From positions 1,408,001-1,472,000 of the forward strand of contig NZ_JAQNDL010000003.1 of assembly GCF_028368995.1 (NCBI RefSeq): DNA of 64,000 bases. The letters are read 5' to 3'. Source of the DNA: Nannocystis bainbridge. GTDB taxonomy: Bacteria; Myxococcota_A; Polyangia; Nannocystales; Nannocystaceae. Shown one piece after another: positions 9,786-57,707 of this stretch. How positions within the stretch are numbered: the first letter of the stretch is position 1; each line of letters starts with the position of its first letter. The notes beneath the pieces are model-generated. The model was not told where the DNA came from and searched no databases. It saw nothing but the letters and a program-made list of their open reading frames with translations. The position numbers were made by a program, and so were the translations under genes.

Positions 9786-10070
9786 GACATTCTCCTGGGG
9801 GTGAAGAGGGCGCGACGCCGCAAGGGTCGCAGCCGCGCCGAGCATCGCACGATCGCCGCGGCCGCGCCCACGACCCCGATCGCAGGGTTTTTCGCGGCGG
9901 CCGGGCTCTGCCGCCGCTCGCGTCTCGCCGCCGGACGACCTCGCGTGCATCGGCAACGATGTTCCGCTGGCGGTCCGTCCTCGTTGTCGGACGTCGCGGA
10001 TCACCTCGTCACGCCCGGCGACGCCGACCGCAGCCACCCGGACAACCCCTCGTCCGCGCTCGACCTGCCG

Positions 10071-15088: not shown

Positions 15089-15093
15089 GGGAC

Positions 15094-16455
15094 ATGTCCG
15101 AGCAGCCCTCCGAGCCCCCGAGGATCTCCGCCATGGACAGCCGCACCATCGTCGAACTCTGCAAGCAACACACCATGTGGTCGTGGTCGAAGAGCGGCCC
15201 GCTGCAGCCGCTCGCGTTCGAGCGGGCCGAGGGCGTGTACCTCTACACCCCCGAGGGCAAGCGCTACCTCGACTTCAACAGCCAGCTCATGAGCGTCAAC
15301 ATCGGCCACAGCCACCCCAAGGTGCTGGCGCGGATGAAGGACGCCATCGACGGCCACATGCTGTTCGCCGCCCCGAGCGCCGCCACCCCCGTGCGCGCGC
15401 GCCTGGGCCAGCGCCTGGCCGAGCTCGTGCCCGGCGACATCAACTCGTTCTTCTTCACCCTCGGCGGCGCCGAGGCCAACGAGAACGCGATCAAGGCCGC
15501 CCGCCTCTACACCGGCCGCCACAAGATCCTCAGCCGCTACCGCAGCTACCACGGGGCCACCCACGCCGCCATGCAGATGACGGGCGACCCGCGCCGCTGG
15601 GCCAACGAGCCCGGCGCGTCCGGCTTCGTCCGCGTCATGGACCCGATCCCCTACGACTTCAGCTTCGGCAACACTGACGCCGAGCGCACCGCGAATCACC
15701 TGCGCTACCTCGAGGAGATCATCCAGTACGAGGGCCCGCACACGATCGCGGCGATGTTCGTCGAGACCGTCATCGGCACCAACGGCATCCAGCCGCCGCC
15801 CGAGGGCTGGCTGGCCGGCCTGCGCGCCCTGCTCGACAAGTACGGCATCCTCCTCGTGTGCGACGAGGTCATGTGCGGCTTCGGTCGCACCGGCAAGCTG
15901 TTCGCCTTCGAGCACTTCGGCGCCCAGCCCGACATCCTCACCATGGCCAAGGGCCTCACGTCCTCGTACGTCCCGCTCGGGGCCATGGGCGTGACCGACA
16001 AGATCGCCGCCCACTTCCGCGACAACGTGTTCTGGGGCGGCCTCACCTACAACGCCCACCCGTTCTGCCTCGCCGTCGCCGAGGCCGTGCTCGACGTCAT
16101 GCTCGAGGAGGACATGGTCGGCAACGCCGCCCGCATGCAGCACGTCATGCTCGCCGAGATGGCCGCCCTCAAGGCCAGGCACCCGAGCGTCCGCGACTTC
16201 CGGGCCATCGGCCTGTTCGGCGCCATCGAGCTGCAGAAAGACCGCCAGGGCACCCGCATGGCCCCCTACAACGGCTCGCACCCGGCCATCGACCGCATGA
16301 TGGCCTTCTTCAAGCAAGAGGGCCTGTTCACCATCTCGCACTGGTGGACCCTGATGTGCAACCCGCCGCTCTCGATCACCGAGGCCGAGCTGCGCGAGGG
16401 CTTCGCCATCATCGACCGCGGCCTCGCCATCACCGACGAGGCCGTCGAAGGCTGA
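15094..16455 (+). CDS. Class III PLP aminotransferase (beta-alanine/omega-amino acid type)
   Basis: GGAEANE, SYHG, DEVMCGFGRTG, MAKGLTSSY (PLP Lys); starts 5 bp after mmsA. Confidence 0.9.
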   Translation: MSEQPSEPPRISAMDSRTIVELCKQHTMWSWSKSGPLQPLAFERAEGVYLYTPEGKRYLDFNSQLMSVNIGHSHPKVLARMKDAIDGHMLFAAPSAATPVRARLGQRLAELVPGDINSFFFTLGGAEANENAIKAARLYTGRHKILSRYRSYHGATHAAMQMTGDPRRWANEPGASGFVRVMDPIPYDFSFGNTDAERTANHLRYLEEIIQYEGPHTIAAMFVETVIGTNGIQPPPEGWLAGLRALLDKYGILLVCDEVMCGFGRTGKLFAFEHFGAQPDILTMAKGLTSSYVPLGAMGVTDKIAAHFRDNVFWGGLTYNAHPFCLAVAEAVLDVMLEEDMVGNAARMQHVMLAEMAALKARHPSVRDFRAIGLFGAIELQKDRQGTRMAPYNGSHPAIDRMMAFFKQEGLFTISHWWTLMCNPPLSITEAELREGFAIIDRGLAITDEAVEG

Positions 16456-16459
16456 CCGT

Positions 16460-18115
16460 ATGGACATGGCGCGAAGGCCCTGTCGCTTCGACCATGTCCT
16501 CCAGGCCATCCTGATCCTCTCCGCCTGCACCGCCCCGCCCCCGGCCCCGACGTCCGAGCCCGCGCCGTCCGCCCCGCCGGTCCAGGTCCGCGTCGAGGTC
16601 GTCACCCCTGGCGGCGGCGCCTCCGAGCTCGACGCCGAAGTCGCCCAGCCGATCGAGGCCGCGCTCGCCCGCCTGCCGGCGGTCCGGCGGCTCCACACCC
16701 GCAGCGACACCGGCCGCGTCGAGGTCGTCGCCACCCTCACCCACGCCGGCGCGATCGAGGCCGTGCGCGACGCCGTCACCGGCGTCCTCCCGTCCTTGCC
16801 GCCCGCCGCCGAGGCCCCGGCGCTCACCCGCCTCGACGGCGTCGTGCCGGCGCTGGCGCTCGTCACCCGCCCCGAGCACGCCGGCGCCGTTCAGAGCGCG
16901 CTCGAGCGGACCGCGGGCGTCGGCCGCGTCGAACTCTGCGGCGTCGGCGAGCCTCGCACCGCCGTCCTCCTCGATCGCACCCGCCTCGCCGGCGTCCCGC
17001 TCGACGCGCTCGTCGCCGCCGTCACCGCCGCCCTCGCCGACGACGACCCGGCCGCGTTGGAGCGCCTCGCCAGCCGACCGATCGCCGGCGCCCTGCAGCT
17101 CCGCGACGTCGCCGCGCTGCAGGACGGCCCGCGTCCGCCCGCGTGCCGGGCCTACGGCGCCCGCGGCCCCGTCGCCCTCGTGCTCGCCGCCACCCAGCCC
17201 GGCGCCGATCCATCTGACGTCGCCGCCCGCGCTCGCCCGCACGCCGTCGACCTCGTCTCGCCCACCGCCGATCTCTTCGCCGACCCCGTCCCGGCCGGGG
17301 GCGCCGAGCTGGCCGTCCTCACCGCCGAGCTGCGGCCGCGCGACGACCTCGGCAGCGCGCTCGCCGGCTGTCTCGCCGCCGTCCCCGACCTGCCCGCGTG
17401 GGCCCTCACCGTCGCCGCGCCCGACCCGGCCGGGCCGCTCGCGCGGGTCCGCCTGCTGGCCGGCGTCACCACGACCTTCCCCATCGAACATGTCCGGAGG
17501 GCCCTGTCCAAATGCGCAGGTGATTCACGGGTCGCCGTGGTCGCCCCGCGGCTCGCCGCCGACCACGCCGTGAGCCTGGCCGTGCAGGGCGCCGATCCCG
17601 GGCTGCGCGCCGACGTGGCCCATCGCCTCGGCGAGCGCATCGCCGGCTTGCCCGGCCTCACCGGCCTGCGGGTCCGCGCGCCCGGCCCCGCCTCGCAGAC
17701 CGTCGAGCTGCGCCGCGACGTCCTGGCCGCCCGCGGCGTCCCGCTCACCGCCGCCGTCGCCGTCGTCCGCCTCGCCCTCGGACCCGTCACCCTCCATCCT
17801 CCGTTCGTGGGCCGCGGCTCCCGGCTCCCGGTCGACATCGACCTGGTCGATCGAACAGGTCCCATCGACCCGCTGGTGCGCGAGCTTTACGTCGGCGCGC
17901 CGACCGGCCCGGTCCCGCTCGCCGACCTGGTCCAGATGCAGGCCTCCGCGGGCGGCCCGCTCGAGCGAATCGATCGCCAGCCCACCGCCTCCGTCGAGGT
18001 CCGCCTGCGCCGCGCCGCCGACGGAGACGCAGTCCGCCGCGCCGTCAAGCACTTCGAGCTCCCGCCGGGCGTCGCCGTCGTCGAGGGCGGCGAGCTGGCG
18101 GAATTCGGCCCCTGA
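16460..18115 (+). CDS. Lipoprotein resembling the AcrB/RND periplasmic porter and docking domains, without a TM domain
   Basis: PGGGASELDAEVAQPIEAAL, LPSLPPAAEAP, LRDVA, VPLADLV...ERIDRQP, LPPGVAV; lipobox LSAC; no TM helices seen. Confidence 0.6.
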   Translation: MDMARRPCRFDHVLQAILILSACTAPPPAPTSEPAPSAPPVQVRVEVVTPGGGASELDAEVAQPIEAALARLPAVRRLHTRSDTGRVEVVATLTHAGAIEAVRDAVTGVLPSLPPAAEAPALTRLDGVVPALALVTRPEHAGAVQSALERTAGVGRVELCGVGEPRTAVLLDRTRLAGVPLDALVAAVTAALADDDPAALERLASRPIAGALQLRDVAALQDGPRPPACRAYGARGPVALVLAATQPGADPSDVAARARPHAVDLVSPTADLFADPVPAGGAELAVLTAELRPRDDLGSALAGCLAAVPDLPAWALTVAAPDPAGPLARVRLLAGVTTTFPIEHVRRALSKCAGDSRVAVVAPRLAADHAVSLAVQGADPGLRADVAHRLGERIAGLPGLTGLRVRAPGPASQTVELRRDVLAARGVPLTAAVAVVRLALGPVTLHPPFVGRGSRLPVDIDLVDRTGPIDPLVRELYVGAPTGPVPLADLVQMQASAGGPLERIDRQPTASVEVRLRRAADGDAVRRAVKHFELPPGVAVVEGGELAEFGP

Positions 18116-18178
18116 GGCGTGGTCACACGCGTGTGCCTTCTTGTGCGGCCGGCGCTCGCTGGTCAAGCTGCTCGAGCC

Positions 18179-18574
18179 ATGACAGAGCCCCAAGCCTCCA
18201 GCCCCTGGCCGCGACGCGTCGGCATCGCCCTCTCCGTCCTCCCGGTCGCCATGCTGCTCTTCAGCGCGTCGGCCAAGCTCGGCTCCAACCCCGAGGCCGT
18301 CGCCGGCTTCAAGGCGATGGGCTACCCCGACGGCGCGCTGCTGAAGCTCGGCATCATCGAGCTGGTCGCCACCATCCTCTACGCCATCCCGGCCACCGCC
18401 GTCCTCGGCGCGATCCTCGTGACCGGCTACCTCGGCGGCGCCGTCGACGTGCACGTCCGCGGCGGCGACGAGCTCGGCAAGATCTTGTTCCCCGTGATCC
18501 TCGGCGTCATCGCCTGGGCCGGCCTCTACCTCCGCGACCCTCGCCTCCGCGCCCTCCTGCCGATCAAGCGGTGA
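18179..18574 (+). CDS. DoxX-like membrane protein
   Basis: LFSASAKL, GIIEL...LYAIP-TAVLGAILVTGYLGGAV, WAGLYLRDPRLR. Confidence 0.85.
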   Translation: MTEPQASSPWPRRVGIALSVLPVAMLLFSASAKLGSNPEAVAGFKAMGYPDGALLKLGIIELVATILYAIPATAVLGAILVTGYLGGAVDVHVRGGDELGKILFPVILGVIAWAGLYLRDPRLRALLPIKR

Positions 18575-18650
18575 TCCACCGCCGCGGCGAGCTCCTCCCC
18601 CGAGCTCGCCCGCATCGCTCGAATTGCGGACCCGCGGCTTCGAAGAGTTT

Positions 18651-18755
18651 CCTCGCCCCGCGCATCGTGCTCGCAGCATCGCGAGCCCGCTCGTCACGAA
18701 CCCGCCGCCTCCGCGAGCCCCTCGCCCGGCGCATCGTGCTCGCGGCATTGCGAGC
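18651..18755. repeat. Two about 36-bp imperfect direct repeats, each with an internal palindrome (CTCGC-N6-GCGAG)
   Basis: cctcgccccgcgcatcgtgctcgcagcatcgcgagc versus cctcgcccggcgcatcgtgctcgcggcattgcgagc, in an intergenic region. Confidence 0.6.
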
Positions 18756-19020
18756 GAGCTCGCTCGCTGCCTCCGTGCCGAGCTCGGCGGAATCACTGCA
18801 TCCTCGACTCGAGCCGCAGCTTCCTTCTCGAGCAACTTCGCCCTCGTGCGAGCTCGACCTCGGCTGCCCCCACCTGTCCGCCCGGGCTCCTGCGTCATGC
18901 CGGCCGCGCTCGCGAACTGCACGCACGACAGCCCTGTCAGGCTCCATGCGCCTGCGATCCGGCCCTGGGACAATTTCTCAATGATCCCGCCATGGCACGA
19001 GCCTCGCTTAGGGGCCGGGC

Positions 19021-19989
19021 ATGACCCGCACCGTCCTCACCGTCGCCTCGCTCCTGCTCGCCCCCGCCCTGCTCGCCTGTGACAGCAAGCCCGAGCCGGG
19101 CGACGACACCGGCAACATCGCTGCCAGCGAGGGCACCGACAGCGACGGCACCGACAGCGACGGCACCGAGGGCACCGCGAGCCCCGGGGACCCGACCGAG
19201 GGCACCGGCACCGGCACCGAGGGCGAGGGCACCACCACTGGTAACGTCGAGGAGGCCGTCTGCACCCCGGAGATCGTCGGCGACGCCCGGACCTGCGAGG
19301 GCGGCACCCAGTTCTGCAGCACCGACTTCGCCGTGCCCGACGCCAAGTACTTCTGGGGCCCCTGCCTCGCCGCCCCCGTCTGCCAGCCCGGTGAGGAGCA
19401 GGGCTGCAACACCTGCGAGCTGCGGGCCGACGGCGTGCCCGAGTGGGTCGACACCTGCGACGAGGGCGGCACCACCACCCCGCTCGTCCTCAACTTCGGC
19501 GCCGACCCGGTCCGTTACGCCAGCTCGGCCGCCGACTTCGACCTCGGCCCGGCCTGCGGCGCCACCGACTGGCCGACCGCCACCACCCCGTGGCTCGCCT
19601 TCGACCGCGACAGCTCCGGCGCCATCGAGGCCGGCCGCGAGCTGTTCGGCAGCGCCACCGTCCTGCGCGCCGGCGGCCTGGCCGACAACGGCTTCACCGC
19701 CCTCGCCGAGCTCGACCAGGATCGCGACGGCAAGATCTCCGCCAGCGACCCCGCCTTCGCCCGCCTCCTCCTGTGGGCCGACCACGACGCCGACCGCCGC
19801 TCGACCGCGTGGGAGCTGACCCCCATCACCTCCGCCGGCATCGTCGCCATCGGCCTCACCTACCGCAACGACTCGCGCTGCGACGGCCGCTCCAACTGCG
19901 AGATCGAACGCGCCGCCTTCACCTACCGCGACGCCCTCGGCCGCGAGAGCGTCGGCGAGATCGTCGACGTCCACCTGTCCTGCCAGTGA
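19021..19989 (+). CDS. Lipoprotein with an EF-hand-like Ca-binding domain (RTX/adhesin-associated type)
   Basis: Lipobox LLAC; TPLVLNF...WLAFDRDSSGAIEAGRELFG...NGFTALAELDQDRDGKIS...LLLWADHD. Confidence 0.8.
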   Translation: MTRTVLTVASLLLAPALLACDSKPEPGDDTGNIAASEGTDSDGTDSDGTEGTASPGDPTEGTGTGTEGEGTTTGNVEEAVCTPEIVGDARTCEGGTQFCSTDFAVPDAKYFWGPCLAAPVCQPGEEQGCNTCELRADGVPEWVDTCDEGGTTTPLVLNFGADPVRYASSAADFDLGPACGATDWPTATTPWLAFDRDSSGAIEAGRELFGSATVLRAGGLADNGFTALAELDQDRDGKISASDPAFARLLLWADHDADRRSTAWELTPITSAGIVAIGLTYRNDSRCDGRSNCEIERAAFTYRDALGRESVGEIVDVHLSCQ

Positions 19990-20538
19990 GCCTCACCGAG
20001 GCCCTCTGACGACCGCGCCGGCCCCCGCCTGCGCGGTCGTCGACGTCTGGCCCCACGACGCGGGCGGCGAATCTCGCCATCCACGGTCGCGCTGCGATCG
20101 TCGCGTCCCGGCGATCGCCGCCCGGCGGACTCGCTAGAATCACGGCGCGGCGTCGATCGACACCCCGCGAACTCGCTGCGAATCAATCCGCGCGGCGTCG
20201 AGTTCTCGCCCACGAGCTCGTGGTCTTCGAGGCCCCTCGCCAGCTGCTGTCACATGCACCTTCGGACATGCCCGAAGGGTCATGTCTCGTCATGACCTCA
20301 CCCCGCCCCGGACCGCGGCGCCTCGATCGCCGGCCCGGTCGAGCCCGCCGGGCCGCCCCCGCCTGGCCCCTCGCTGCCCGCGCGACCGCGCGCCCCGCGG
20401 CGAACCTGTCCGAAGGGCCATCCTTTCCCATCCTCGCCCGAGGCCGGTTTGGGGCCCCTGTGCCACCGGGGCGGCCCGCGCGGGCTCCGCCGTCGTTGCA
20501 CGGGCCCCGCGGCGGGCGTAGGCTTGCGACACTCCACC

Positions 20539-21264
20539 ATGTTTCTCGGCATTCGACGCGCGATCTCCCTCCTCCTGCTGAGCCTCTACTTCTGGAATTT
20601 CCTGCTCGTCGCCCTGGTGGGCCCGGAGGACCTGTACGCCTGCTACGCCGCCCTGGCCGCGGTCTACGGGGTCGCCTTCGTCGGCGTCGCCGCCGAGTGG
20701 TTCTGGGCCCGGTGGTTTGCCATCGGCCTCGGCCAGTTCGGGGCCTTCTCGCTGCTGGCGCTGCCGCAGACGGGGCCCGAGCCGTCGCTGCTGGTGTTCG
20801 GCATCTCGCACGTCCTGGTCGCGCTGTTCCTCGGCGGTGAGGGCATGGCCGCCCGCTACGAGCGGAGCGAGGCCTGCGTCGAGCGTTACAACTTCCAGGA
20901 GGAGTCGCTGATCCTGCTCCGCCGCTCGATCAAGTCGGCGGGCATGTCGCTGCCCTTCCTCATCCTCTTCACCCTCGCCCCGCGGCAGGACGCCCTGCAC
21001 CTGACGGCGCTCGGCCTCGGCGTCGCCGCCCTGGTCGGCCTGATCCGTCGCCGCACCTGGGCCCTGTTCGCCGCCGCCGGCGCGGGCGCGATCGCCCTGG
21101 GCGACGGCCTCGGCCTGTTCGGCGCCCCGACCCACGGCTACTTCCTCACCACCCCGAGCGGCAGCCTGATCCTCCACGGCCCCGGCTTCGCCCTGCTCGC
21201 CTCGCTCATGCTGCTGGTGCCCCTCGCGTTCGCCCGCCCGATCGCCCGCTGGCTGCGCGCTTGA
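20539..21264 (+). CDS. Hypothetical polytopic membrane protein
   Basis: About 7-8 hydrophobic segments; GC3 bias. Confidence 0.7.
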   Translation: MFLGIRRAISLLLLSLYFWNFLLVALVGPEDLYACYAALAAVYGVAFVGVAAEWFWARWFAIGLGQFGAFSLLALPQTGPEPSLLVFGISHVLVALFLGGEGMAARYERSEACVERYNFQEESLILLRRSIKSAGMSLPFLILFTLAPRQDALHLTALGLGVAALVGLIRRRTWALFAAAGAGAIALGDGLGLFGAPTHGYFLTTPSGSLILHGPGFALLASLMLLVPLAFARPIARWLRA

Positions 21265-21462
21265 GGCGGCCGGCTCGCGCCGGTCTCTTCAGACATGAAT
21301 GTTGGGCCAGGTCTCTTGGGACCTGGCCCTTTGTACATGGGGCGGCAGCGCCCCGCAGATAACTACCCGGACGTCACGTGTCTGGGGGCGCGGGCCCACG
21401 CGCCCGACCGGAGGTTTCTGCCTCATTGATTCGCGAGACACGCGCCGCTACCGTGTGCGGCC

Positions 21463-22971
21463 GTGGGCGCTCGCTTTCCTTTCCCTTCGTTTCCGCGTGG
21501 TTGGTTCGTCATCGGCTTCCCCGAGGACATCGCTCCCGGGCAGGTCAAGACCCTCCGTTACTTCGCGGAGGACATCGTCGTGTTCCGCACCGAGTCGGGC
21601 GTGCTGTCGGCGGTCGACAAGACCTGCCCGCACCTCGGCGCCCACCTCGGCGGCGGCCACGTCAAGGGTGAGTGCCTGCGCTGCCCGTTCCACGACTGGG
21701 GCTTCCGCACCGACGGCGTCGTCGTCGACGTCCCGTACGCGCCGAAGATCCCGGCCAAGGCCGCGGTCAAGACCTGGCACATCCGCGAGCAGAACGGCGT
21801 GATCCTGGCCTGGTACTGCCCCAAGGGCGAAGCCCCGGCCTACGAGGTCCCGGTGCTCGACGAGGAGGGCTGGACCGGCAACAAGACCGTGCGATGGGTC
21901 GTGCGCTCGCACCCGCAGGAGGTCGCCGAGAACACCGTCGACTGCTCGCACCTCGGCCCGGTCCACCACGTCGGCCGCACCGACGTGCTCTCGGTCGAGC
22001 AGGAGGGCCACTTCATGCGCGTCGTCCTCCAGATGGAGGCCTCGGGCGCGCCGATCGACATGCCCGACGAGTTCAACGACGTCCAGCTCGACGTCAAGCT
22101 GTACGGCATCGGCCACATCGTCTCGTCGACCACCGTGCTTACCTCGGACATGCAAACGCGCCAGCGGATCTACCCGACCCCGATCGACGAGGACACGATC
22201 GCGATCTTCGGCGTCAGCAACATCCGGCAGATGGCGGACGAGGGCTACACCCGCGAGATCGAGGACATCTTTTACCGGGCGTTCTTGGCCGACTTCCCCA
22301 AGGACTTCCCGATCTGGGAGAACAAGGCCTACCTCGACAAGCCGATGCTCGCCGGCGGAGACGGCCCGATCGGTCGCTACCGCCGCTGGTGCCGCCAGTT
22401 CTACGACTACCCCGAGGCCGCCCCCGCGCAGCCCGCCGCCGCCGCTGCCGCGCAACCGCTGGCCGCGCCCGTCACCGCGATCGCCAAGCTCAAGGGCTGG
22501 CTGCGCAACCTGGCCCAGGCCCCGGCCGCCAACGGCAACGGCGACAACAACAGCGGCAGCAACAACGACGCCGGCCTCGACGCCCACCTGATCGACCTCG
22601 GCCCCCGCAAGCCGCGAGCCGTCGCCGCCACCAGCAAGTTCGCCTCGGTCGGCGACTACTTCGACAGCCTCGAGAAGCGCTTCAACCCGGCCGCCGCCGG
22701 CGACCTGACGGCCGTCATCCAGTGGGTGCTCACCGGCGACAAGGCCTGCACCTACTTCGCCGAGATCAAGGACGGCAACGTCCAGCGCGTCGCCGGCACC
22801 CACCCGGCGCCGACGATCACCATCGAGATGTCGGCCGACGACTACCTGCTCATGATCAACGGCGAGCTCAACGGCGCTCGCGCCTTCTCGACCGGCCGCG
22901 GGCGCCTGCGCGGCCCCGTGCGCCTGGCGATGAAGATGCAGCGCCTGTTCCCGCTCGAGGCCGCGGTCTGA
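21463..22971 (+). CDS. Rieske oxygenase (KshA/Neverland-like) fused to a C-terminal SCP2 sterol-binding domain
   Basis: CPH...CPFH Rieske ligands, ENTVDCSHLGPVH iron site, DFPIWENKAY...DGPIGRYRRW..QFY; SCP2-like tail. Confidence 0.88.
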   Translation: MGARFPFPSFPRGWFVIGFPEDIAPGQVKTLRYFAEDIVVFRTESGVLSAVDKTCPHLGAHLGGGHVKGECLRCPFHDWGFRTDGVVVDVPYAPKIPAKAAVKTWHIREQNGVILAWYCPKGEAPAYEVPVLDEEGWTGNKTVRWVVRSHPQEVAENTVDCSHLGPVHHVGRTDVLSVEQEGHFMRVVLQMEASGAPIDMPDEFNDVQLDVKLYGIGHIVSSTTVLTSDMQTRQRIYPTPIDEDTIAIFGVSNIRQMADEGYTREIEDIFYRAFLADFPKDFPIWENKAYLDKPMLAGGDGPIGRYRRWCRQFYDYPEAAPAQPAAAAAAQPLAAPVTAIAKLKGWLRNLAQAPAANGNGDNNSGSNNDAGLDAHLIDLGPRKPRAVAATSKFASVGDYFDSLEKRFNPAAAGDLTAVIQWVLTGDKACTYFAEIKDGNVQRVAGTHPAPTITIEMSADDYLLMINGELNGARAFSTGRGRLRGPVRLAMKMQRLFPLEAAV

Positions 22972-22973
22972 AC

Positions 22974-23768
22974 ATGGACGAGCTCCTGCGCTGGCTGGCC
23001 CTCGCGTTCTGGTCGATCGTCGGCGGCCTCGTCATCGTCTGGGGCGTCGCCGGCTACTACCACGTCCGCTACTACGTCCTCCGCCGCCACGAGCCCGAGA
23101 CCTGGAAGTGCCAGCCCCGGCGCTGGCTACGGCCCGAGCAGCAGCGCCAGGCGATGCGGCTGACGACCATGAACATGACGATCGGCGGGCTGCTGTCGGG
23201 CACCTTCATCTGGTGCCTCGACCGCGGCCTGCCGACCGGCCTCTACTTCGACTTCGCCGAGCGCGGCTGGGCGTGGTTCCTCTTCAGCAGCGCCGCCTTC
23301 TTCCTGCTGGTCGACCTGCTGGCCTACTACGCCCACCGGGCGATGCACCACAAGCGGGTGTTCCGCCACGTCCACGCGTGGCACCACCGCTACGTCGCCA
23401 CCACCCCGTTCGTCGTCACGGCGATGCACCCGGCCGAGTTCTTGACCTTCCAGGCGGTCACCTTCTTGCCGATGCTGTTCCTGCCGATCTACTTCCTCAC
23501 GGCGATCGCGGTGTTCGTCTACATCCTGGTGTTCAACATCATCGACCACTCGGGCGTGAAGCTGAGCTCGCGCTGGCCGTGGCAGGGCCCGACCAGCTTC
23601 CACGACGACCACCACGCCCACTTCCACTGCAACTTCGGCCAGTGCCTGCTGCTGTGGGACCGCCTCCACGGCACCCTCCGCCGCAAGAACCGCCGCTACG
23701 GCGCCGACGTCTACGGCGGCCGTGGATCGGGCGGAACCACCGAAGACGAATTCGTCACGTACAAATGA
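22974..23768 (+). CDS. Sterol desaturase/fatty acid hydroxylase family (ERG3/ERG25-like)
   Basis: Three His boxes HRAMH, HAWHH, HDDHH; NFGQ...WDRLHGT; starts 2 bp after the Rieske gene. Confidence 0.88.
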   Translation: MDELLRWLALAFWSIVGGLVIVWGVAGYYHVRYYVLRRHEPETWKCQPRRWLRPEQQRQAMRLTTMNMTIGGLLSGTFIWCLDRGLPTGLYFDFAERGWAWFLFSSAAFFLLVDLLAYYAHRAMHHKRVFRHVHAWHHRYVATTPFVVTAMHPAEFLTFQAVTFLPMLFLPIYFLTAIAVFVYILVFNIIDHSGVKLSSRWPWQGPTSFHDDHHAHFHCNFGQCLLLWDRLHGTLRRKNRRYGADVYGGRGSGGTTEDEFVTYK

Positions 23769-23829
23769 CCCCGACGCGGCCCGCTCGCCGCCTCGCCTCG
23801 ACGACCTCCCGCGCCCCGATCGACCTCGC

Positions 23830-24975
23830 ATGCACGCTCCCTGGGACCTCGCCCCGCACCTGCCCTGGCACGTCTTCACCAACCCCGCCGACAAGTGGGC
23901 GACGATGCCGTCGTTCCTGCTCGGCGAGTACCTGTTCTACGCCTGCGCCGCCCTGGCGTTCACCCACGCGTGGAAGCAGGGCGCCGAGCGGCGCAAGCAC
24001 CTGCTCGCGTGGTTCGGCGCGCTGCTGGCCGGCACCGCCAACGACATGATCTTCATGGCCCTGCCGCTGGTCGACAACTTCTGGCAGGCGCAGTCGACGA
24101 TCATGATCACGCCGCGGCTGCCGCTGTACATCCCCTGCGTCTACGTCTGCTTCATGTACTTCCCGACGGTGTCGGTGTGGCGCCTCGGCCTGCCGCCGCT
24201 GGCCCGCGCCGCCCTCACCGGCCTCGCCGGCAGCCTGTTCTACGCCCCCTATGACATCACCGGCGCCAAGTTCCTGTGGTGGACCTGGCACGACAGCGAC
24301 GCCCCGATCGCCAGCCGACTGCTCGGCGCGCCGATCGGCAGCACCATGTGGGTCATCACCTTCGTCGCCGCCTTCTCGTGGCTGCTCGGCAAAGCCACCG
24401 ACCGCGACCCCGCCGTGGCCGGCAAGACGGTCGCCAAGGGCCTCGCGCTGGTGTGCGGCCTCAGCACGCTGCTGATGATGCTGCAGCTCAACGTCCTCCA
24501 GCAGCTCGACGGCGGCGTCCCGGGGCCGATCGGCCTCGTCACCGTGATCGCCCTGTACGGCCTGCTGATCTGGCGCGGAGCCAGGCGCGCCGACCCGGCC
24601 GAGCCGCGCCGCGCCGACCGGATCCTCCACGCCGCGGTGGTCCTCTACTTCACAAGCCTGGCCGTGATCATGGCGACCTTCACGCCCGAGGACCACGTCA
24701 GCGCGAGCATGCACCAGACCTACGGCCAGTGCCACGTCGAGGCCACCGACATCACCGGCCACACCCGCTGGCTTTACGTGTGCGCCGAGGACTTCGACGA
24801 GGACTACTCGTTCGACGGGGTCAAGCTGCCGAGCGACGGCGCCGAGTGGTACACCGTCACCGGCCGCCCGCACACCAGCTACCCGAAGTGGCTGGCCGGC
24901 GTGTCCGGCCTCGGCCTCGCCGGCATCGCCCTCTACTCGTTCCTGCTCGGCCCGCTGCGCCGCCGCCGTCGCTGA
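23830..24975 (+). CDS. Uncharacterised multi-pass membrane protein in a sterol-related operon
   Basis: About 8 TM segments; polar motifs DNFWQAQ, RLPLYI, YDITGAKFLWWTWHDSD. Confidence 0.75.
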   Translation: MHAPWDLAPHLPWHVFTNPADKWATMPSFLLGEYLFYACAALAFTHAWKQGAERRKHLLAWFGALLAGTANDMIFMALPLVDNFWQAQSTIMITPRLPLYIPCVYVCFMYFPTVSVWRLGLPPLARAALTGLAGSLFYAPYDITGAKFLWWTWHDSDAPIASRLLGAPIGSTMWVITFVAAFSWLLGKATDRDPAVAGKTVAKGLALVCGLSTLLMMLQLNVLQQLDGGVPGPIGLVTVIALYGLLIWRGARRADPAEPRRADRILHAAVVLYFTSLAVIMATFTPEDHVSASMHQTYGQCHVEATDITGHTRWLYVCAEDFDEDYSFDGVKLPSDGAEWYTVTGRPHTSYPKWLAGVSGLGLAGIALYSFLLGPLRRRRR

Positions 24976-24989
24976 CGGCTCGCTCTTGG

Positions 24990-25067
24990 GACATGTCACC
25001 CGCGACATGTCCCTCGCACCATGCACGAAGGGACATGCCCACGAGGGCATGTCCCTTTCACCATGTC
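24990..25067. repeat. 14-bp-phased TGTC-N6-GACA array (6 junctions)
   Basis: CATG cores at 24992, 25006, 25020, 25034, 25048, 25062, between convergent genes. Confidence 0.85.
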
Positions 25068-30134: not shown

Positions 30135-30155
30135 GGCGATGACGATGGCGTTCGG

Positions 30156-30220
30156 GACATGTCCTCACGGGCATGTCCCGATCGACATGTCCCATGTGGC
30201 ATGTCCCGTTCGACATGTCC
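30156..30220. repeat. 14-bp-phased TGTC-N6-GACA array (5 junctions)
   Basis: CATG at 30158, 30172, 30186, 30200, 30214. Confidence 0.85.
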
Positions 30221-30234
30221 AAGGGGCAGCCCTC

Positions 30235-30600
30235 GCGGCCGCCCACTCGCTCCACCCGCGCGCATCCGCGTCCGGTTGCCCCGACATGTCCGAAGCACGG
30301 TGAGCCGCCTCCGCCACCGCGCACTCGCTCCACCCGAGCCCATCCGCGGGTCGGCTGACCCCGACACGTCCGAAGCACGCCTGGGCCGCCTTCTCGCCCG
30401 CGCACTCGCTTTCGCCCACGCCCATCCGCGGCCGGCTGGCTCCGACATCTTCGAGAGCACGCCGAAGCCGCCTTCTCGCCCGCGCACTCGCTACATCCGC
30501 GGCCGGCTGGCCCCGACAAGATCAAAGCACGCGGGGCCGCCTTCGCGGTCGCGCACTCGCTATCCGCGGCCGGCGGCCCCGTCATGCTCCAGACACGCCG
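30235..30600. repeat. Degenerate tandem repeat, 5 copies of about 70-82 bp
   Basis: CACTCGCT at 30244, 30322, 30403, 30485, 30554; most copies are followed by ATCCGCG, CCGACA, AGCAC and GCCGCCT blocks. Confidence 0.8.
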
Positions 30601-50562: not shown

Positions 50563-50589
50563 TCTTCTTCCCCGTTCTTAAAAGGAAGA

Positions 50590-50655
50590 GACATGTCCTC
50601 TGCGACATGCTTCCGAGGACATGCTCATCGGGACATGTCCTCGTGAGCATGTCCT
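50590..50655. repeat. 14-bp-phased array (5 junctions)
   Basis: CATG at 50592, 50606, 50620, 50634, 50648. Confidence 0.85.
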
Positions 50656-51335
50656 GATCGCGCCCCGACGAAGATCCCCGCCGCCAGCAGATCCTCCACC
50701 ACCTCGTCCGCGCCCCACGGCTCCGGCGCGCCGGCCAGCGCCGCCTCGATCGCCGCCAGCTCCTCGTCGATCGGCGTCGCCCGGCAGGCGTCGAGCTCGC
50801 CGTCTCGCCACACCACCGTCGCCGTCTCGCCGCGCACAGGCTCGGCCGCCCACGCCTCCTCGCCGAGCCAAGCCGCCACGTCCCACGACCCGCGCAGCAC
50901 CACCACCGACCTCGCCGCTCGCAGCGGCCCCTCCGCGCTGTCGCGCGGGTCATCCGGCCCGCTCTCGGCCCGCCACGTCGCCCACTCGAGCGCCGCCAGC
51001 TCCCCGAGCCACGCTGGCGACCCCGCCTGCCGGGCCACGAACTCGCCGAACCCCGCGGCGTTCTCGTTGAGCTCGAAGCTCTGCGCCGGCCGCTCGTGGA
51101 AATAAGCCTCGACCCACGCCGCCCACCGCGCCTCGCCCACGCGCACCATCACGGCCTCCCGCGTGCCCGCGTGGATGACGTCGATCGCGTCGCGCCGCAG
51201 CTTGCGGCACATCTCCGCGTACACCTGCAGCCCCTCGGCTGCCCCCTCGATCGCCAGCGACTTCGCCACCGTCGCCGCGTCCGCCGTCCCCTCGATCAGC
51301 GGCTGCAGCGTCGAGAACAAGCCCGCCAGCCGCAT
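50625..51335 (-). CDS. DUF2063/HvfC-BufC-like MNIO partner protein
   Basis: GLQVY..., VGEARWAAWVEAYFHERP, GFGEFV, WLGELAALEWA; TGATG overlap with the DUF692 gene. Confidence 0.8.
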   Translation of the reverse strand: MRLAGLFSTLQPLIEGTADAATVAKSLAIEGAAEGLQVYAEMCRKLRRDAIDVIHAGTREAVMVRVGEARWAAWVEAYFHERPAQSFELNENAAGFGEFVARQAGSPAWLGELAALEWATWRAESGPDDPRDSAEGPLRAARSVVVLRGSWDVAAWLGEEAWAAEPVRGETATVVWRDGELDACRATPIDEELAAIEAALAGAPEPWGADEVVEDLLAAGIFVGARSGHAHEDMSR

Positions 51336-52159
51336 CACAGCCCCTCCAGCGCCAGCGCCGACTCGCGGCGGGCCCGCGCCACCTCGGCCAGCAGCACCTC
51401 GACCGGCGGAAGATCGGTCTCCCACTCGACGATCGTCGGGATCGCCCGCCCCGCCTTGCGGATCGTCCAGCGATACAGCGACCACACCGCCTCCGGCACC
51501 GGCCCCGTGTGATCGTCGATCAGCAGCGACCCGCGCGGCCGATGCCCCGCCACGTGGATCTCCCGCACCCGCGCCAGCGGCAGCGCGTCCACATAGGCCT
51601 CCGGCGCCAGCCCGTGGTTGTGCGCATTGACGAGGACATTGCCGATGTCGAGCAGCAGCCCGCAGTCGGCCTCCTCGATCACCGTTCGCACGAACACCGG
51701 CTCCGCCAGCGCGTCGTCGGGCAGGCGCGCGTACGTGGCCACGTTCTCGAGCACCAGCTCTCGGCCGAGCCGCGCCTGTACCGCCTGCACCCGCCCCACC
51801 ACGTGCGCCGCCGCCTCCTCGCTGTGCGGCAACGGCAGGAGCGCGTGCGTGTAGCCGCCGCCGATCCGCCCGAAGCACAGGTGGTCGCTCCACCACTCGA
51901 GACCCAGCCCCGCGACCGCGCGGAGGAGCTCGTCGTCGAGCGGTTCGGGCCCGCCGACCGACAGCGAGATGCTGTGACCGACAGCGGGCCAGCGCTCGCG
52001 ACACGCGTCGAAGATCCGCCGCCGCCGCCCGCCGAAGCGGGCCCAGTTCTCCGGCATCACCTCGATGAAGTCGAGCGCCGGCTCGGCGGCCAGCAGCGCC
52101 TCTGCATATTCGTGCAGCAGCAACACCCCGACCCCGCCGTCCGCGATCGTCCCTTTCAT
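51335..52159 (-). CDS. DUF692 multinuclear non-heme iron oxidative enzyme (MNIO)
   Basis: EVMPENW, HSISLSVGG, SDHL, LLPLP, LENV, LLDIGN, EIHVAGH, IDDH. Confidence 0.92.
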   Translation of the reverse strand: MKGTIADGGVGVLLLHEYAEALLAAEPALDFIEVMPENWARFGGRRRRIFDACRERWPAVGHSISLSVGGPEPLDDELLRAVAGLGLEWWSDHLCFGRIGGGYTHALLPLPHSEEAAAHVVGRVQAVQARLGRELVLENVATYARLPDDALAEPVFVRTVIEEADCGLLLDIGNVLVNAHNHGLAPEAYVDALPLARVREIHVAGHRPRGSLLIDDHTGPVPEAVWSLYRWTIRKAGRAIPTIVEWETDLPPVEVLLAEVARARRESALALEGL

Positions 52160-52228
52160 CGCAGTCTCACCAATGCCCATACCGCGAGCCGAGCCCGCGA
52201 CAGCCAACAATCCGGGGTGGGTTCAATC

Positions 52229-52272
52229 GGCCCTCCTCGCCCGCAGCGAGCCGCCCAGGCGCGAGGAGGGCC
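52229..52272 (-). promoter_or_regulatory. Intercistronic hairpin between the precursor and MNIO genes
   Basis: Perfect 12-bp inverted repeat ggccctcctcgc/gcgaggagggcc. Confidence 0.55.
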
Positions 52273-52324
52273 CGTATTTCCCCGGCGCGCCGATGCGGCC
52301 CGCCGGGCGCGAACCGGCGCGGCG

Positions 52325-52399
52325 CTAGCCCTTGCAGCTGCCCGCGCGCACGTTCGTCTTGACCTTCACCCCACCCTTGACACCCTTTTTCTTCTGCAT
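52325..52399 (-). CDS. Putative RiPP precursor peptide, 24 aa, MQKKKGVKGGVKVKTNVRAGSCKG
   Basis: AGGAGG RBS 7 nt before ATG, mostly G/C third codon positions, co-oriented directly upstream of the MNIO, single Cys in terminal SCKG. Below the ORF-track length cut-off. Confidence 0.75.
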   Translation of the reverse strand: MQKKKGVKGGVKVKTNVRAGSCKG

Positions 52400-52516
52400 T
52401 CAAAAGCCTCCTGTAAAAGCCATTTTTAAAGCTAGCCGAGCCCCTCCGCACCGTCAAGGCGCGCCGGCGCACGATTCACGGCCGCATCCGCGCCGCGGCT
52501 GGTATCGTCATAGTCG

Positions 52517-53218
52517 ATGCCCGCCTTCGTCGTCTCGCTGCGCGAGCCCAATTACGGCAGCCCCGTCGCCGCCGAAGTCGTCGGCGACGTCGCTGTGGTC
52601 GCCGTCGCCAGCGCATGGGGAGCGTGGACCGGACTCGAGGCCGAGCAGCCCGCCGTCCTCGGCGCCCAGACCTCGCTCGCCGCCGACGCGCGCGCCGGCG
52701 CGACCGACTGGCGAGCCGCGCTGGTGCGAGCATTCGCTGGCGCCTCCGCGCACATCAGCCGCCTGCCCCCGCCCGAAGACCCCGAGTGGGCCCCGCTCAC
52801 CTCGCTGACCTGCGCCGTCGTCACGCCCGCGCAGATCTTCGTCGGCTGGCTCGGCGGCGTCACGGCCTGCGTGCTCGACGATCGTCGCCTCGCCCGCGAG
52901 TCAGAGCCGCACACGCTCATCCGCCAGCTGCTCGCCGAGGGCCACAAGACCGCGGCGCTGGGCGGCATGGCCCTCAGCCTCGGCCACATCATCGTCCGCA
53001 GCGTCGGCCCCGCGGGCCACCCCGCCCCCGCGCCCGAGCTCGTCGAGTGGCCGCCGCTGCAGCCCGGTCAACGCCTGCTGTTGACCCCGCGGGCCACCGT
53101 CGCCGCGCTGCGCGGCAGCTTGCCGCTCGCGCAACTCGGCGGCGATCCATGGCTGCACGCCGCCGTCTCGACGTGCGACGAGATCGGCCACCGGATCGGC
53201 GCCCTCGTCGAACCATGA
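52517..53218 (+). CDS. Degenerate PP2C/PPM phosphatase-like protein
   Basis: PP2C-like order of segments (TSLTCAVV, VGWLGG, PHTLIRQL, HIIVRSVG, LQPGQRLLL), but the metal-binding Asp residues are missing. Confidence 0.55.
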   Translation: MPAFVVSLREPNYGSPVAAEVVGDVAVVAVASAWGAWTGLEAEQPAVLGAQTSLAADARAGATDWRAALVRAFAGASAHISRLPPPEDPEWAPLTSLTCAVVTPAQIFVGWLGGVTACVLDDRRLARESEPHTLIRQLLAEGHKTAALGGMALSLGHIIVRSVGPAGHPAPAPELVEWPPLQPGQRLLLTPRATVAALRGSLPLAQLGGDPWLHAAVSTCDEIGHRIGALVEP

Positions 53219-53235
53219 ATCCATGCGTCCCATCG

Positions 53236-53328
53236 GTCTCCAAGGACATGTCTCGAGAGACACATCAATCGCTCACGCGTGAGCCCGACCGTAAACTCTG
53301 TCTCCAAGGACATGTCCCGAGAGACAAT
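53236..53328. repeat. Two copies of a 27-bp double unit of the 14-bp array
   Basis: gtctccaaggacatgtc(t/c)cgagagaca at 53236 and 53300. Confidence 0.8.
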
Positions 53329-53342
53329 CTTAAAAAAAGGAC

Positions 53343-53756
53343 TCATTCACCGGTCGCTTCGAGCAGCAGCTCGCGCAGCATCGTCCGGTGGCAGCGATCC
53401 GCGTCGAAGCACGCGCTCGAGCACAGCAGCGTGATCGTCTCGCCCGCGGCCACCCGCTCCGCCAGCGCCAGCACCTGCGCGTGCGCCGGCTCGTGCCGCA
53501 TCTCGCTGCGGTAGCGCCGGCGGAACATGCGATCGCTGATGGGAGCCTGCTGCTTGCCATGGAACGCCGCCAGCAGCTCCGGGCTCGGGCTCACCTCCTT
53601 GATCCACTCGTCCCACGTCTCGTCCTCGTGCCGGACCCCGCGCGGTCGGTAGCGGCACACCAGGATCCGCGTGCCCTCGCCCCGGTGCGCGCGATCGTTC
53701 CACCGCCGTGTGTGGATCTCCCCGGCCCTGCCCCGCATGTCGAGCGCCGCCGTCAT
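53343..53756 (-). CDS. DUF488 (YeaO-like) family protein
   Basis: RILVCRYRPRGVR, WIKEVSPSPELL, ITLLC...CHR. Confidence 0.85.
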   Translation of the reverse strand: MTAALDMRGRAGEIHTRRWNDRAHRGEGTRILVCRYRPRGVRHEDETWDEWIKEVSPSPELLAAFHGKQQAPISDRMFRRRYRSEMRHEPAHAQVLALAERVAAGETITLLCSSACFDADRCHRTMLRELLLEATGE

Positions 53757-57589: not shown

Positions 57590-57611
57590 CCGGGTAGCGC
57601 CCGAACGCATG

Positions 57612-57707
57612 GACATGTCCCAAAGAACATGCTCCATGCGACATGAGACACAACTGTAGCGATGGCTCGCCAGGACATGTCCAACAGGACATGTCCAACA
57701 GGACACG
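57612..57707. repeat. 14-bp-phased arrays between the two paralogous lipoproteins
   Basis: Cores at 57614, 57628, 57642 and 57676, 57690, 57704; exact tandem caggacatgtccaa. Confidence 0.8.

What the first reader, a model, noticed from the sequence alone, without database searches (positions are those of the whole stretch)
50625..52412. MNIO (DUF692) RiPP cluster with an unannotated 24-aa precursor ending in SCKG
Seen: an ORF at 52399-52325 (minus strand), absent from the ORF track, has a perfect AGGAGG RBS and encodes MQKKKGVKGGVKVKTNVRAGSCKG. It is followed by a 12-bp hairpin, then DUF692 and a translationally coupled DUF2063 partner. Established: MNIOs with such partners modify Cys residues in ribosomal peptides (methanobactin MbnBC, TglHI, ChrHI, and bufferin/oxazolin BufBC/HvfBC, whose precursors carry signal peptides and several Cys). 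Inference: this precursor has no signal peptide, a Lys/Val-rich leader ending KVKTNVRAG, and a core of only about 4 residues with one Cys. That suggests a distinct minimal MNIO product class, such as a small Cys-derived metabolite or metal chelator. No protease or transporter gene is adjacent.
Basis: partly seen in the sequence, partly recalled or inferred. Interest (0 to 1): 0.85.

Follow-up and report, generated by a model that had tools for sequence, protein, structure and literature searches.

The report
Signal-less one-cysteine copper-peptide precursor in Nannocystis
A real, strongly conserved 24-residue peptide gene sits in front of an iron-enzyme pair of the known copper-peptide (bufferin/oxazolin) type, but unlike all its relatives the peptide has no export signal and only one cysteine, so it is a stripped-down variant of a known system rather than a new class.

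Summary
The 24-codon ORF at 52399-52325 (-) with an AGGAGG ribosome-binding site lies upstream of a DUF692/MNIO gene (52159-51335) and an overlapping DUF2063 partner gene (51335-50625). The peptide is present in 5 of 5 orthologous Nannocystis loci. It is the best-conserved stretch of the region, with 96% nucleotide identity against 79-84% for neighbouring genes. It shows a three-base synonymous Ser codon switch. A degenerate pattern for it occurs only in the 5 of 73 genomes of the order that carry the orthologous enzyme.

The enzyme pair belongs to the bufferin/oxazolin ("captophorin") MNIO-PME1 group. In the tree its nearest clade uses 66-176-residue precursors with export-signal-like N-termini and 2-9 copies of xSCKG/xSCGG motifs. 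One of these motifs is GSCKG, identical to the last five residues here. The most likely reaction is therefore the known four-electron oxidation of Cys22 to a 5-thiooxazole, not a new product class.

The unusual features are the absent export signal, the single Cys, the net +8 charge, and the lack of DoxX, protease or transporter genes nearby. The cassette is dispensable: it is deleted in one close relative and frameshifted in another. Verdict: a new variant of a known kind, of moderate interest.

The parts
52429..52457 (-). Conserved upstream blocks TTGACG-N17-TAGCTT in the 117-nt divergent intergenic region; a possible promoter or operator
   Evidence: The TTG and GCTAGC columns are invariant in the 5-genome alignment A1. 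The strict sigma-70 scan found no promoter here, so the role is inferred only.
52407..52412 (-). Shine-Dalgarno AGGAGG, 7 nt before the ATG
   Evidence: GGAGG lies 6-7 nt before the ATG in all 4 orthologous loci.
52325..52399 (-). 24-aa precursor peptide MQKKKGVKGGVKVKTNVRAGSCKG, stop included. Net charge +8, one Cys at position 22.
   Evidence: Present in 5 of 5 orthologous loci. Only K3Q and G9S vary. The Ser21 codon is AGC here and TCC in the other four. Mean pairwise nucleotide identity is 0.96.
52229..52272 (-). 12-bp perfect stem (GGCCCTCCTCGC / GCGAGGAGGGCC) with a 20-nt loop in the 165-nt spacer; no U-tract
   Evidence: Each ortholog has a different strong stem-loop at the equivalent place. 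Spacer identity is only 0.32, and the fold energy is not unusual.
51335..52159 (-). MNIO (DUF692) enzyme, 274 aa from the ATG at 52159
   Evidence: PF05114 E 5.8e-83. NCBIfam BufB 255.2 bits (cut-off 310) and HvfB 227.5 bits (cut-off 360). PDB 3BWW E 1.9e-44. The start is placed by the ortholog alignment and by the 274-aa called protein P0155.
50625..51335 (-). Partner protein (PME type 1): DUF2063 helical domain plus a C-terminal RRE-like beta/alpha domain, 236 aa. Its start overlaps the MNIO stop (TGATG).
   Evidence: 20 of 20 aligned partners match DUF2063. The profile hits 3DEE at E 5.5e-07. The AF2 model has pLDDT 91.7. Foldseek gives 3DEE at E 7.5e-06, then TglI 8HCI_A.
50591..50610 (-). 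Terminator-like hairpin plus T-rich tail just after the partner gene, built from copies of the GGACATGTCC genome repeat
52517..53218 (+). Divergently transcribed 233-aa protein with a PP2C-like fold. Membership in the system is uncertain.
   Evidence: No Pfam match. Conserved beside the cassette in 4 of 4 orthologous loci and deleted together with it in G035. The AF2 model has pLDDT 62, and the top Foldseek hits are all PPM/PP2C phosphatases at E about 1e-07.

Best explanation
The locus is a three-gene operon (precursor, MNIO oxidase, DUF2063/PME1 partner) of the bufferin/oxazolin ('captophorin') kind, in a Nannocystis-like myxobacterium.

Proposed mechanism, steps 1-2 shown and the rest inferred:
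1. The 24-aa peptide is translated from a strong ribosome-binding site.
2. The MNIO and its translationally coupled partner are made from the same transcript.
3. They form a heterodimer.
4. The partner's RRE-like domain holds the Lys/Val-rich N-terminal part of the peptide. The alternating V-K-V-K-T-N-V-R stretch suits a beta strand.
5. The multi-iron MNIO oxidises Cys22 by four electrons, using the Ser21 carbonyl, to a 5-thiooxazole (expected -4 Da, absorbance near 305 nm).
6. With no export signal, exporter or protease gene nearby, the product most likely stays in the cytoplasm as a small cationic thiolate/N-donor ligand for Cu(I). Two peptides may bind one metal ion.

The peptide looks like a derived, cut-down form of the signal-bearing multi-repeat precursors used by the nearest enzyme clade.
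For: Real gene:
- The sORF is present in 5 of 5 orthologous loci with GGAGG 6-7 nt upstream.
- Only 2 of 24 residues vary. Ser21 is encoded AGC here and TCC in the other four.
- Mean pairwise nucleotide identity is 0.96, against 0.79 and 0.84 for the flanking genes and 0.71 and 0.32 for the flanking non-coding DNA.
- The degenerate pattern for NVRAGSCKG-stop occurs once in each of the 5 genomes with the orthologous MNIO, in 0 of the other 68 genomes of the order, and 0 times as the reversed control.

Enzyme pair:
- PF05114 full length; best NCBIfam models BufB and HvfB; 3BWW E 1.9e-44.
- The partner matches DUF2063 and has the 3DEE fold.

Substrate motif:
- A branch with 99/94 support joins the Nannocystis+P0004 clade to a 20-row clade.
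- In that clade, 17 of the 19 loci examined show an upstream precursor of 66-176 aa with 2-9 Cys in xSCKG/xSCGG/xGCKG motifs. Eight of the 17 contain SCKG, and one (L053) contains GSCKG.

Published support:
- MNIO-PME1 pairs install 5-thiooxazoles on such Cys residues (PMC13097082, abstract and sections 7, 12-14 read).
- HvfA without its signal peptide, and a 3.3-kDa truncation of it, are still modified by HvfBC (PMC11252979, passages read).
- The residue after the catalytic Asp is Asp (LLIDDHTG) in all Nannocystis enzymes and in P0004. PMC13097082 section 14 reports this substitution for MNIOs acting on Cys-Lys motifs.
Against: - No expression or modification data exist.
- The MNIO is below both NCBIfam equivalog cut-offs (255 vs 310; 227 vs 360), and the partner is far below HvfC's (36 vs 142).
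- The clade sits on a long stem (0.5, then 0.37 changes per column), so the chemistry could have shifted.
- In vitro, a FonA peptide with one EGKCG repeat was not modified by FonBC; only the two-repeat peptide was. Cys followed by a charged residue (NACKG) was also not processed by FonBC (PMC13097082, sections 12-13).
- The sister-clade enzymes that sit beside SCKG precursors have Asp-Thr, not Asp-Asp, so the Asp-Asp/Cys-Lys match is not clean.
- Published surveys pair bona fide DUF2063 partners with Sec-signal precursors (PMC12452194, section 19). This locus breaks that rule.
- The cassette is deleted in G035, and the MNIO is split over two frames in G037, so it is dispensable.
- One heterocycle per peptide is a poor chelator on its own.
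Confidence: 0.6

Rival explanations
1. The sORF is a true substrate but the chemistry differs. The diverged MNIO would perform another Cys-directed reaction near the C-terminus, such as an oxazolone-thioamide, beta-carbon excision or backbone cleavage. The Lys-rich peptide would serve as a scaffold from which a small Cys-derived metabolite is released.
For: The scores are below the BufB and HvfB equivalog cut-offs. The clade has a long stem branch. The single Cys lies two residues from the C-terminus. FonBC does not accept a single repeat or a C-K dyad (PMC13097082, sections 12-13), so this enzyme must differ at least in specificity.
Against: The closest models and the closest solved structure are of the BufB/HvfB type. 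ApyH, MbnB and ChrH score far lower at 97, 38 and 33 bits, and TglH only reaches E 4.9e-15. The nearest clade uses the same SCKG motif. No protease, PEARL-type ligase or exporter gene is nearby.
Confidence: 0.17
2. The sORF is a relic or regulatory upstream ORF, not the substrate. The enzyme pair would act in trans on signal-bearing Cys-repeat precursors encoded at the genome's other MNIO loci. The sORF plus the hairpin would only tune expression.
For: The genome has 5 PF05114 loci, and at least one (L003) has a Cys-repeat precursor candidate upstream. GC-rich stem-loops follow the sORF in all 5 orthologs. The cassette is decaying in two relatives.
Against: The amino-acid sequence is conserved far better than a spacing or regulatory uORF would need, including the Cys motif and a three-base synonymous Ser switch. 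The last five residues equal a core motif of the sister clade's precursors. The other MNIO loci have their own enzymes. No Rfam family matches the region.
Confidence: 0.08
3. The sORF is a chance ORF that is not translated, and its conservation reflects an RNA or DNA element.
For: Synonymous sites are also very conserved, with only 1-3 synonymous codon differences between genomes. No RNA-seq evidence could be obtained.
Against: A strong Shine-Dalgarno sequence sits at the right distance in all 5 loci, and the ORF's stop is kept in all 5 (an in-frame stop directly before the ATG was read only in this window). The AGC/TCC Ser switch keeps the residue. No Rfam match. The peptide-level motif is shared with related precursors.
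Confidence: 0.03

Closest known systems
Oxazolin / fontiphorin systems HvfABC and FonABC (Buf_EGKCG, 'Lys-Cys' captophorins; PMC11252979, PMC13097082)
   Same: Gene order is precursor, MNIO, DUF2063/PME1 partner. The MNIO is closest to 3BWW and the HvfB/BufB models. The partner has the 3DEE fold. The Cys sits in a small Gly/Lys-rich motif. The signal peptide is not needed for recognition by HvfBC (PMC11252979).
   Different: Those precursors are 31-506 aa, carry Sec signals and have repeated EGKCG motifs with many Cys (PMC12452194, section 15). Here there are 24 aa, no signal and one GSCKG. No DoxX gene is nearby. The host is a myxobacterium, not a member of the Pseudomonadota. Scores are below the equivalog cut-offs.
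Sister-clade myxobacterial/Polyangia MNIO loci found here (L044-L055, L062, L064, L068-L074)
   Same: They join this clade on a branch with 99/94 support, at 45-47% identity to this MNIO. The upstream precursors are Lys-rich with xSCKG/xSCGG motifs, and the last Cys lies 2-9 residues from the C-terminus. The partners are homologous at 27-37% identity.
   Different: Their precursors are 66-176 aa with an MNKK-plus-hydrophobic N-terminus and 2-9 Cys. The residue after the catalytic Asp is Thr rather than Asp.
Bufferin 2 (BufA2B2C2; 'Cys-Lys' captophorins)
   Same: BufB is the best NCBIfam model (255 bits). The substrate has a Cys-Lys dyad, and the enzyme has Asp after the catalytic Asp, as PMC13097082 section 14 reports for this group.
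   Different: BufA2 precursors have 6 or 12 Cys and a Sec signal. The score is below the BufB cut-off of 310.
Methanobactin MbnABC
   Same: A short signal-less precursor in front of an MNIO. As I recall, MbnA is roughly this size; no call checked its length. Cys is converted to a Cu-binding heterocycle.
   Different: MbnB scores only 38.5 bits. Its partner is MbnC, not DUF2063. Methanobactin operons carry export, uptake and leader-removal functions that are absent here.
Earlier scan note e1-366458 (Melainabacteria; an unchecked AI note)
   Same: It describes a signal-less minimal precursor beside an MNIO-DUF2063 pair.
   Different: That peptide has a two-Cys EGKCG unit and comes from a different phylum. 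I did not examine it.

Membership tests
MNIO superfamily (PF05114, DUF692) | Full-length match to the family profile above the curated cut-off | tested here: met
   278.6 bits against a cut-off of 25, profile positions 1-260 of 263.
MNIO superfamily (PF05114, DUF692) | Conserved His/Asp/Glu iron ligands and catalytic Asp | tested here: inconclusive
   The motifs GHSISLS, SDHLCF, LEN, LLDIGN..NAHNHG, IHVAGH, IDDH and VEWE align with identical H/D/E residues in 3BWW. Which of them are ligands is recalled, not checked residue by residue. The Asp of IDDH aligns with the position that PMC13097082 calls the catalytic base.
Captophorin / bufferin-oxazolin MNIO-PME1 gene cluster | PME type 1 partner (DUF2063 domain plus RRE-like domain) encoded directly after the MNIO | tested here: met
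   PF09836 at 31.9 bits against 27.2. 20 of 20 aligned homologues match DUF2063. 3DEE is hit by profile and by fold. The model shows helices followed by a beta/alpha C-terminal domain. The genes overlap.
Captophorin / bufferin-oxazolin MNIO-PME1 gene cluster | Cys-rich precursor (several Cys or repeats) directly upstream of the MNIO | tested here: not met
   A precursor is directly upstream, but it has one Cys and one motif. All 17 sister-clade precursors have 2-9 Cys.
Captophorin / bufferin-oxazolin MNIO-PME1 gene cluster | N-terminal Sec signal peptide on the precursor (the rule for PME1-associated precursors; PMC12452194, section 19) | tested here: not met
   The peptide has 24 residues, 8 of them basic, and no hydrophobic stretch. 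An in-frame stop directly precedes the ATG. This is by inspection; no signal-peptide predictor was available.
Captophorin / bufferin-oxazolin MNIO-PME1 gene cluster | Cys converted to 5-thiooxazole (-4 Da, ~305 nm) | not testable with these tools
   Needs co-expression followed by MS, UV and NMR.
Captophorin / bufferin-oxazolin MNIO-PME1 gene cluster | Frequent accessory genes (DoxX, sigma/anti-sigma NrsF) | tested here: not met
   None appears among the ORFs scanned between 43.0 and 59.9 kb of the window. These genes are optional in published clusters.
NCBIfam equivalogs BufB (NF050167), HvfB (NF003818), HvfC (NF050145) | Score at or above the curated equivalog cut-off | tested here: not met
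   255.2 against 310; 227.5 against 360; 36 against 142. P0004, the nearest outside relative, is also below the cut-offs at 266.9 and 255.4.
Buf_EGKCG / oxazolin precursor family | [quoted passage not shown] | tested here: not met
   A single GSCKG and no signal. No NCBIfam model matches the peptide at E up to 10.

The most novel reading that the evidence does not exclude
The Nannocystis lineage has turned an exported copper-buffering peptide system into an intracellular one. The product would be a 24-residue peptide of net charge +8 with a (V-K)n-like amphipathic strand, carrying a single C-terminal thiooxazole. It would work inside the cell, for example as a Cu(I) chaperone or buffer that binds metal as a dimer, or as a cationic nucleic-acid- or membrane-associated redox/metal ligand. 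Its enzyme would have evolved to accept a lone Cys-Lys site that the characterised FonBC rejects. This would be the first PME1-dependent MNIO with a signal-less, single-site substrate, and it would break the published link between signal peptides and PME1 partners.
Probability: 0.3. Interest if true: 0.7.

Novelty: new variant of a known kind. Interest (0 to 1): 0.52.

Why it matters
Published surveys of about 14,000-24,000 MNIO loci state that enzymes with genuine DUF2063 partners act on Sec-exported, multi-Cys precursors, and that unannotated small ORFs could not be grouped into families (PMC12452194, sections 15 and 19). This locus is a clean, conserved counter-example. It offers the smallest natural substrate so far proposed for this enzyme type: one site and 24 residues, easily made by synthesis. 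That would be a convenient minimal system for studying recognition and the thiooxazole-forming mechanism. If the product acts in the cytoplasm, it would widen the biology of these peptides beyond periplasmic copper buffering. It also shows that automated mining of this family misses precursors shorter than gene-caller limits. The expected chemistry is not new, and the family is small and dispensable, which limits the significance.

Tried and rejected
- The listing of cluster members for P0004, P0005 and P0002: database switched off. The context of P0004 (58% identity, on a 988-nt contig) and of the 78%-identical metagenome proteins P0158 and P0159 therefore stays unknown.
- RNA evidence: no RNA holder was listed for window 50600-52600.
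- Genome contigs and metagenome-contig scans with the MNIO found no relative between 50% and 75% identity: 10 and 11 loci respectively, of which the non-Nannocystis ones are at most 47% identical.
- Phylum and class samples searched with P0004 (401 genomes each) gave only signal-bearing relatives outside Nannocystis.
- Rfam scan of 52100-52560: no match at E up to 1.
- The sigma-70 scan found no promoter, so the TTGACG-N17-TAGCTT blocks are only conserved sequence.
- The hairpin as a conserved attenuator is rejected as a shared element: its sequence is not conserved and its fold z-score is -0.88.
- I first took the 'ALRPC...' C-termini upstream of second-tier MNIOs for small precursors. They are the ends of 324-431-aa proteins.
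- The Asp-Asp versus Cys-Lys co-variation holds only partly.
- Complex prediction was not run: the peptide is shorter than the 30 residues the tool asks for, and the enzyme-partner pair alone is a textbook pair.
- Earlier-scan look-ups by place and by sequence gave nothing.
Full report
**What is in the sequence.** On the minus strand, 52399..52325 encodes MQKKKGVKGGVKVKTNVRAGSCKG. AGGAGG lies at 52412-52407, 7 nt before the ATG. A TGA in the same frame directly precedes the ATG, so no longer form with a signal peptide is possible. A 165-nt GC-rich spacer follows. It contains a perfect 12-bp stem (52272-52261 pairing with 52240-52229). After the spacer comes a 274-aa MNIO gene (52159-51335; PF05114, E 5.8e-83, profile positions 1-260 of 263). 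Next is a 236-aa gene (51335-50625) whose ATG overlaps the MNIO stop as TGATG and which matches DUF2063 at 31.9 bits against a cut-off of 27.2. A terminator-like hairpin with a T-rich tail follows at 50610-50591. The window belongs to an 11.05-Mb, 71% GC genome. Its close relatives carry Nannocystis names in their record titles.

**Is the small ORF real?**
- I searched all 73 genomes of the order with the MNIO. Proteins 78-87% identical occur in 4 of the 10 other genomes of the same genus (G041, G036, G038, G037). The next best match is 49%.
- All four loci carry the sORF at the same place, with GGAGG 6-7 nt upstream.
- Only two residues vary (K3Q, G9S). Ser21 is AGC here and TCC in the other four genomes, a three-base change that keeps the residue.
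- Mean pairwise nucleotide identity is 0.96 for the sORF. It is 0.79 for the 5' part of the divergent gene, 0.84 for the 5' part of the MNIO, 0.71 for the upstream intergenic DNA and 0.32 for the spacer.
- A degenerate DNA pattern for NVRAGSCKG-stop is found once in each of these 5 genomes, in none of the other 68, and never as the reversed control.
- Within this genome a peptide regex finds no second copy.
- No Rfam family matches the region.
- No RNA data could be obtained.

**What the enzymes are.**
- The MNIO scores best against NCBIfam BufB (255.2 bits) and HvfB (227.5 bits), both below their equivalog cut-offs of 310 and 360. ApyH, MbnB and ChrH score far lower at 97, 38.5 and 33 bits.
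- The closest solved structure by sequence is 3BWW (E 1.9e-44), ahead of TglH and MbnB.
- A 20-sequence alignment of the partner and its homologues hits the PME1 protein 3DEE at E 5.5e-07. All 20 members match DUF2063.
- The AlphaFold2 model of the partner (pLDDT 91.7) has an N-terminal helical domain and a C-terminal beta/alpha domain. Its best structural matches are 3DEE (E 7.5e-06) and TglI.
- The pair is therefore an MNIO with a genuine type-1 partner.

**Relatives and their precursors.**
- An exhaustive profile-free search gave 5898 hits at E up to 0.001. Only one representative exceeds 50% identity: P0004 at 58%.
- The word-indexed search found six 90%-identity clusters at 58% identity or more. 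Two of them carry Nannocystis pusilla and N. punicea names, and three come from metagenomes.
- Scans of genome and metagenome contigs and of phylum and class samples found only relatives of at most 56% identity to P0004, or 47% to this enzyme, outside Nannocystis.
- In a maximum-likelihood tree of 63 MNIOs, the four Nannocystis enzymes plus P0004 form a clade with 100/100 support. A branch with 99/94 support joins that clade to a 20-row clade. I left out G037 because of its frameshift, L005, and duplicate loci. The tree is midpoint-rooted for drawing only.
- I examined 19 loci of that sister clade. Two are cut at the contig start. The other 17 show an upstream ORF of 66-176 aa with 2-9 Cys. 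My script selected ORFs that begin with an MNKK-like start; the hydrophobic stretch that follows was seen by eye, and no signal-peptide predictor was run.
- The Cys residues of these ORFs sit in HSCKG, KSCKG, KSCGG, GGCKG or KGCGG motifs. Eight of the 17 contain SCKG, and L053 contains GSCKG, the exact C-terminus of the Nannocystis peptide.
- More distant relatives in the tree (L003, L056-L060, L063) also have signal-type Cys-repeat precursors.
- The simplest reading is that the 24-mer is a derived form that kept one motif and lost the hydrophobic signal. P0004's context is unknown and the root is not established, so this direction of change is inferred.

**Comparison with the literature.**
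- Antoine et al. 2025 (PMC12452194; abstract and sections 13, 15, 17-19 read) survey about 14,000 MNIOs. They report that enzymes beside Sec-signal precursors have authentic DUF2063 (PME-type 1) partners, while signal-less precursors go with PME-type 2 partners. They also report that unannotated ORFs found by RODEO did not group into families. The words Myxococc* and Nannocystis do not occur in the main text.
- Gadgil et al. 2026 (PMC13097082; abstract and sections 7, 12-14 read) show that MNIO-PME1 pairs install 5-thiooxazoles. [quoted passage not shown] They find Asp in place of Phe after the catalytic Asp in Cys-Lys enzymes.
- The Nannocystis enzymes and P0004 read LLIDDHTG, that is Asp-Asp, which fits a Cys-Lys substrate. 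The sister-clade enzymes beside SCKG precursors read Asp-Thr, so this is weak support.
- Against an easy fit: FonBC did not modify a one-repeat peptide, nor a NACKG variant (sections 12-13).
- In favour: Manley et al. 2024 (PMC11252979; passages read) found that HvfA lacking its signal peptide, and a 3.3-kDa truncation, are still modified.
- Two full-text searches returned no paper linking Nannocystis with MNIOs, bufferins or captophorins. I did not open any supplements, so a listing of these loci in supplementary tables cannot be excluded.

**Surroundings.** Gene order is the same in the four other Nannocystis genomes: IGPD, a carboxyltransferase and a TPR protein converge on the operon. On the other side lie a divergent 233-aa gene, DUF488, a 429-aa unknown protein and a metallophosphoesterase. 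None is a protease, transporter or DoxX. The divergent gene has no Pfam match. Its low-confidence model (pLDDT 62) finds only PP2C phosphatases.

**Losses in relatives.** In G035, the relative with the most similar flanks (96% identity in the carboxyltransferase gene), the stretch 51224-52580 is deleted. The deletion removes the first 37 codons of the partner, the MNIO, the sORF and the start of the divergent gene. Most of the rest of the divergent gene is gone too. In G037 the MNIO is split between two frames. The cassette is thus accessory and decays in some lineages.

**The hairpin.** The 12-bp stem is real. However, the spacer varies from about 50 to 165 nt between species and is only 32% identical. 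Each ortholog has a different strong stem-loop. The fold energy of this spacer is ordinary for its composition (z -0.88), and there is no U-tract. A role in setting the precursor-to-enzyme ratio is possible but unsupported.

**Verdict.** The system is a cut-down, signal-less, single-site variant of the bufferin/oxazolin (captophorin) kind, not a separate class. The expected reaction is conversion of Cys22 to a 5-thiooxazole. What the product does without an export route remains open. An earlier, unchecked note of this scan (e1-366458) describes a comparable signal-less mini-precursor in another phylum, which suggests such reductions may recur.

Noticed in passing
window 50589-50640; also near 24989-25045, 30155-30282 and 57611-57687: The palindrome GGACATGTCC occurs 956 times in the 11-Mb genome against about 9.5 expected from base composition. 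Copies are often spaced 14, 28, 42 or 56 nt apart, forming 14-nt-period arrays. It looks like a REP-like intergenic repeat, and copies form the terminator-like hairpin after the partner gene.
   Followed up: partly
window 52517-53218 (+): The divergent 233-aa protein has no Pfam match. Its AF2 model (pLDDT 62) matches only PP2C/PPM phosphatases (E about 1e-07, TM about 0.5). The N-terminal region reads VASAWGAW where, as I recall, PP2C enzymes have an Asp-Gly metal-binding motif, so it may be inactive. It is deleted together with the MNIO cassette in G035.
   Followed up: partly
L085 (G035:C1:3246000-3252500) against window 51224-53359: This is a natural deletion of the sORF, the MNIO, the 5' end of the partner and most of the divergent gene, in the relative with the most similar flanks. 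A partner-gene remnant (residues 38-235) is left behind.
   Followed up: yes
L039 (G037), positions 9541-10370: The orthologous MNIO of G037 is split between two reading frames (residues 17-97 and 103-291). This is either a frameshift or an assembly error. Its sORF is intact.
   Followed up: partly
L015, L021, L025, L029, L030, L034, L035 (same family, other genera): MNIOs 41-44% identical to this one sit directly after 133-154-aa open frames with roughly ten T(T/S)AGCP(G/T) repeats. This Cys-Pro motif is unlike EGKCG, and the characterised FonBC is reported not to tolerate Pro in its substrate (PMC13097082, section 12).
   Followed up: no
L011, L019 (and L020, L026): Open frames of 324-431 aa ending in ...ALRVCRERGS / ...ALQPCRAGA lie 19-60 nt upstream of an MNIO in L011 and L019, and about 400 nt upstream in L020 and L026. 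Similar ...LRPC.. ends were seen in short ORFs upstream of several other loci, where their full length was not checked. They may be protein substrates or conserved neighbours.
   Followed up: no
G000 loci L001, L003, L004, L005: The genome has four further PF05114 genes. L003 has a Cys-repeat candidate precursor ending ...GEAACGEGTCG. L004, a very divergent MNIO, lies downstream of a 123-aa frame ending ...MSCCVIICRTWTPGQAG.
   Followed up: no
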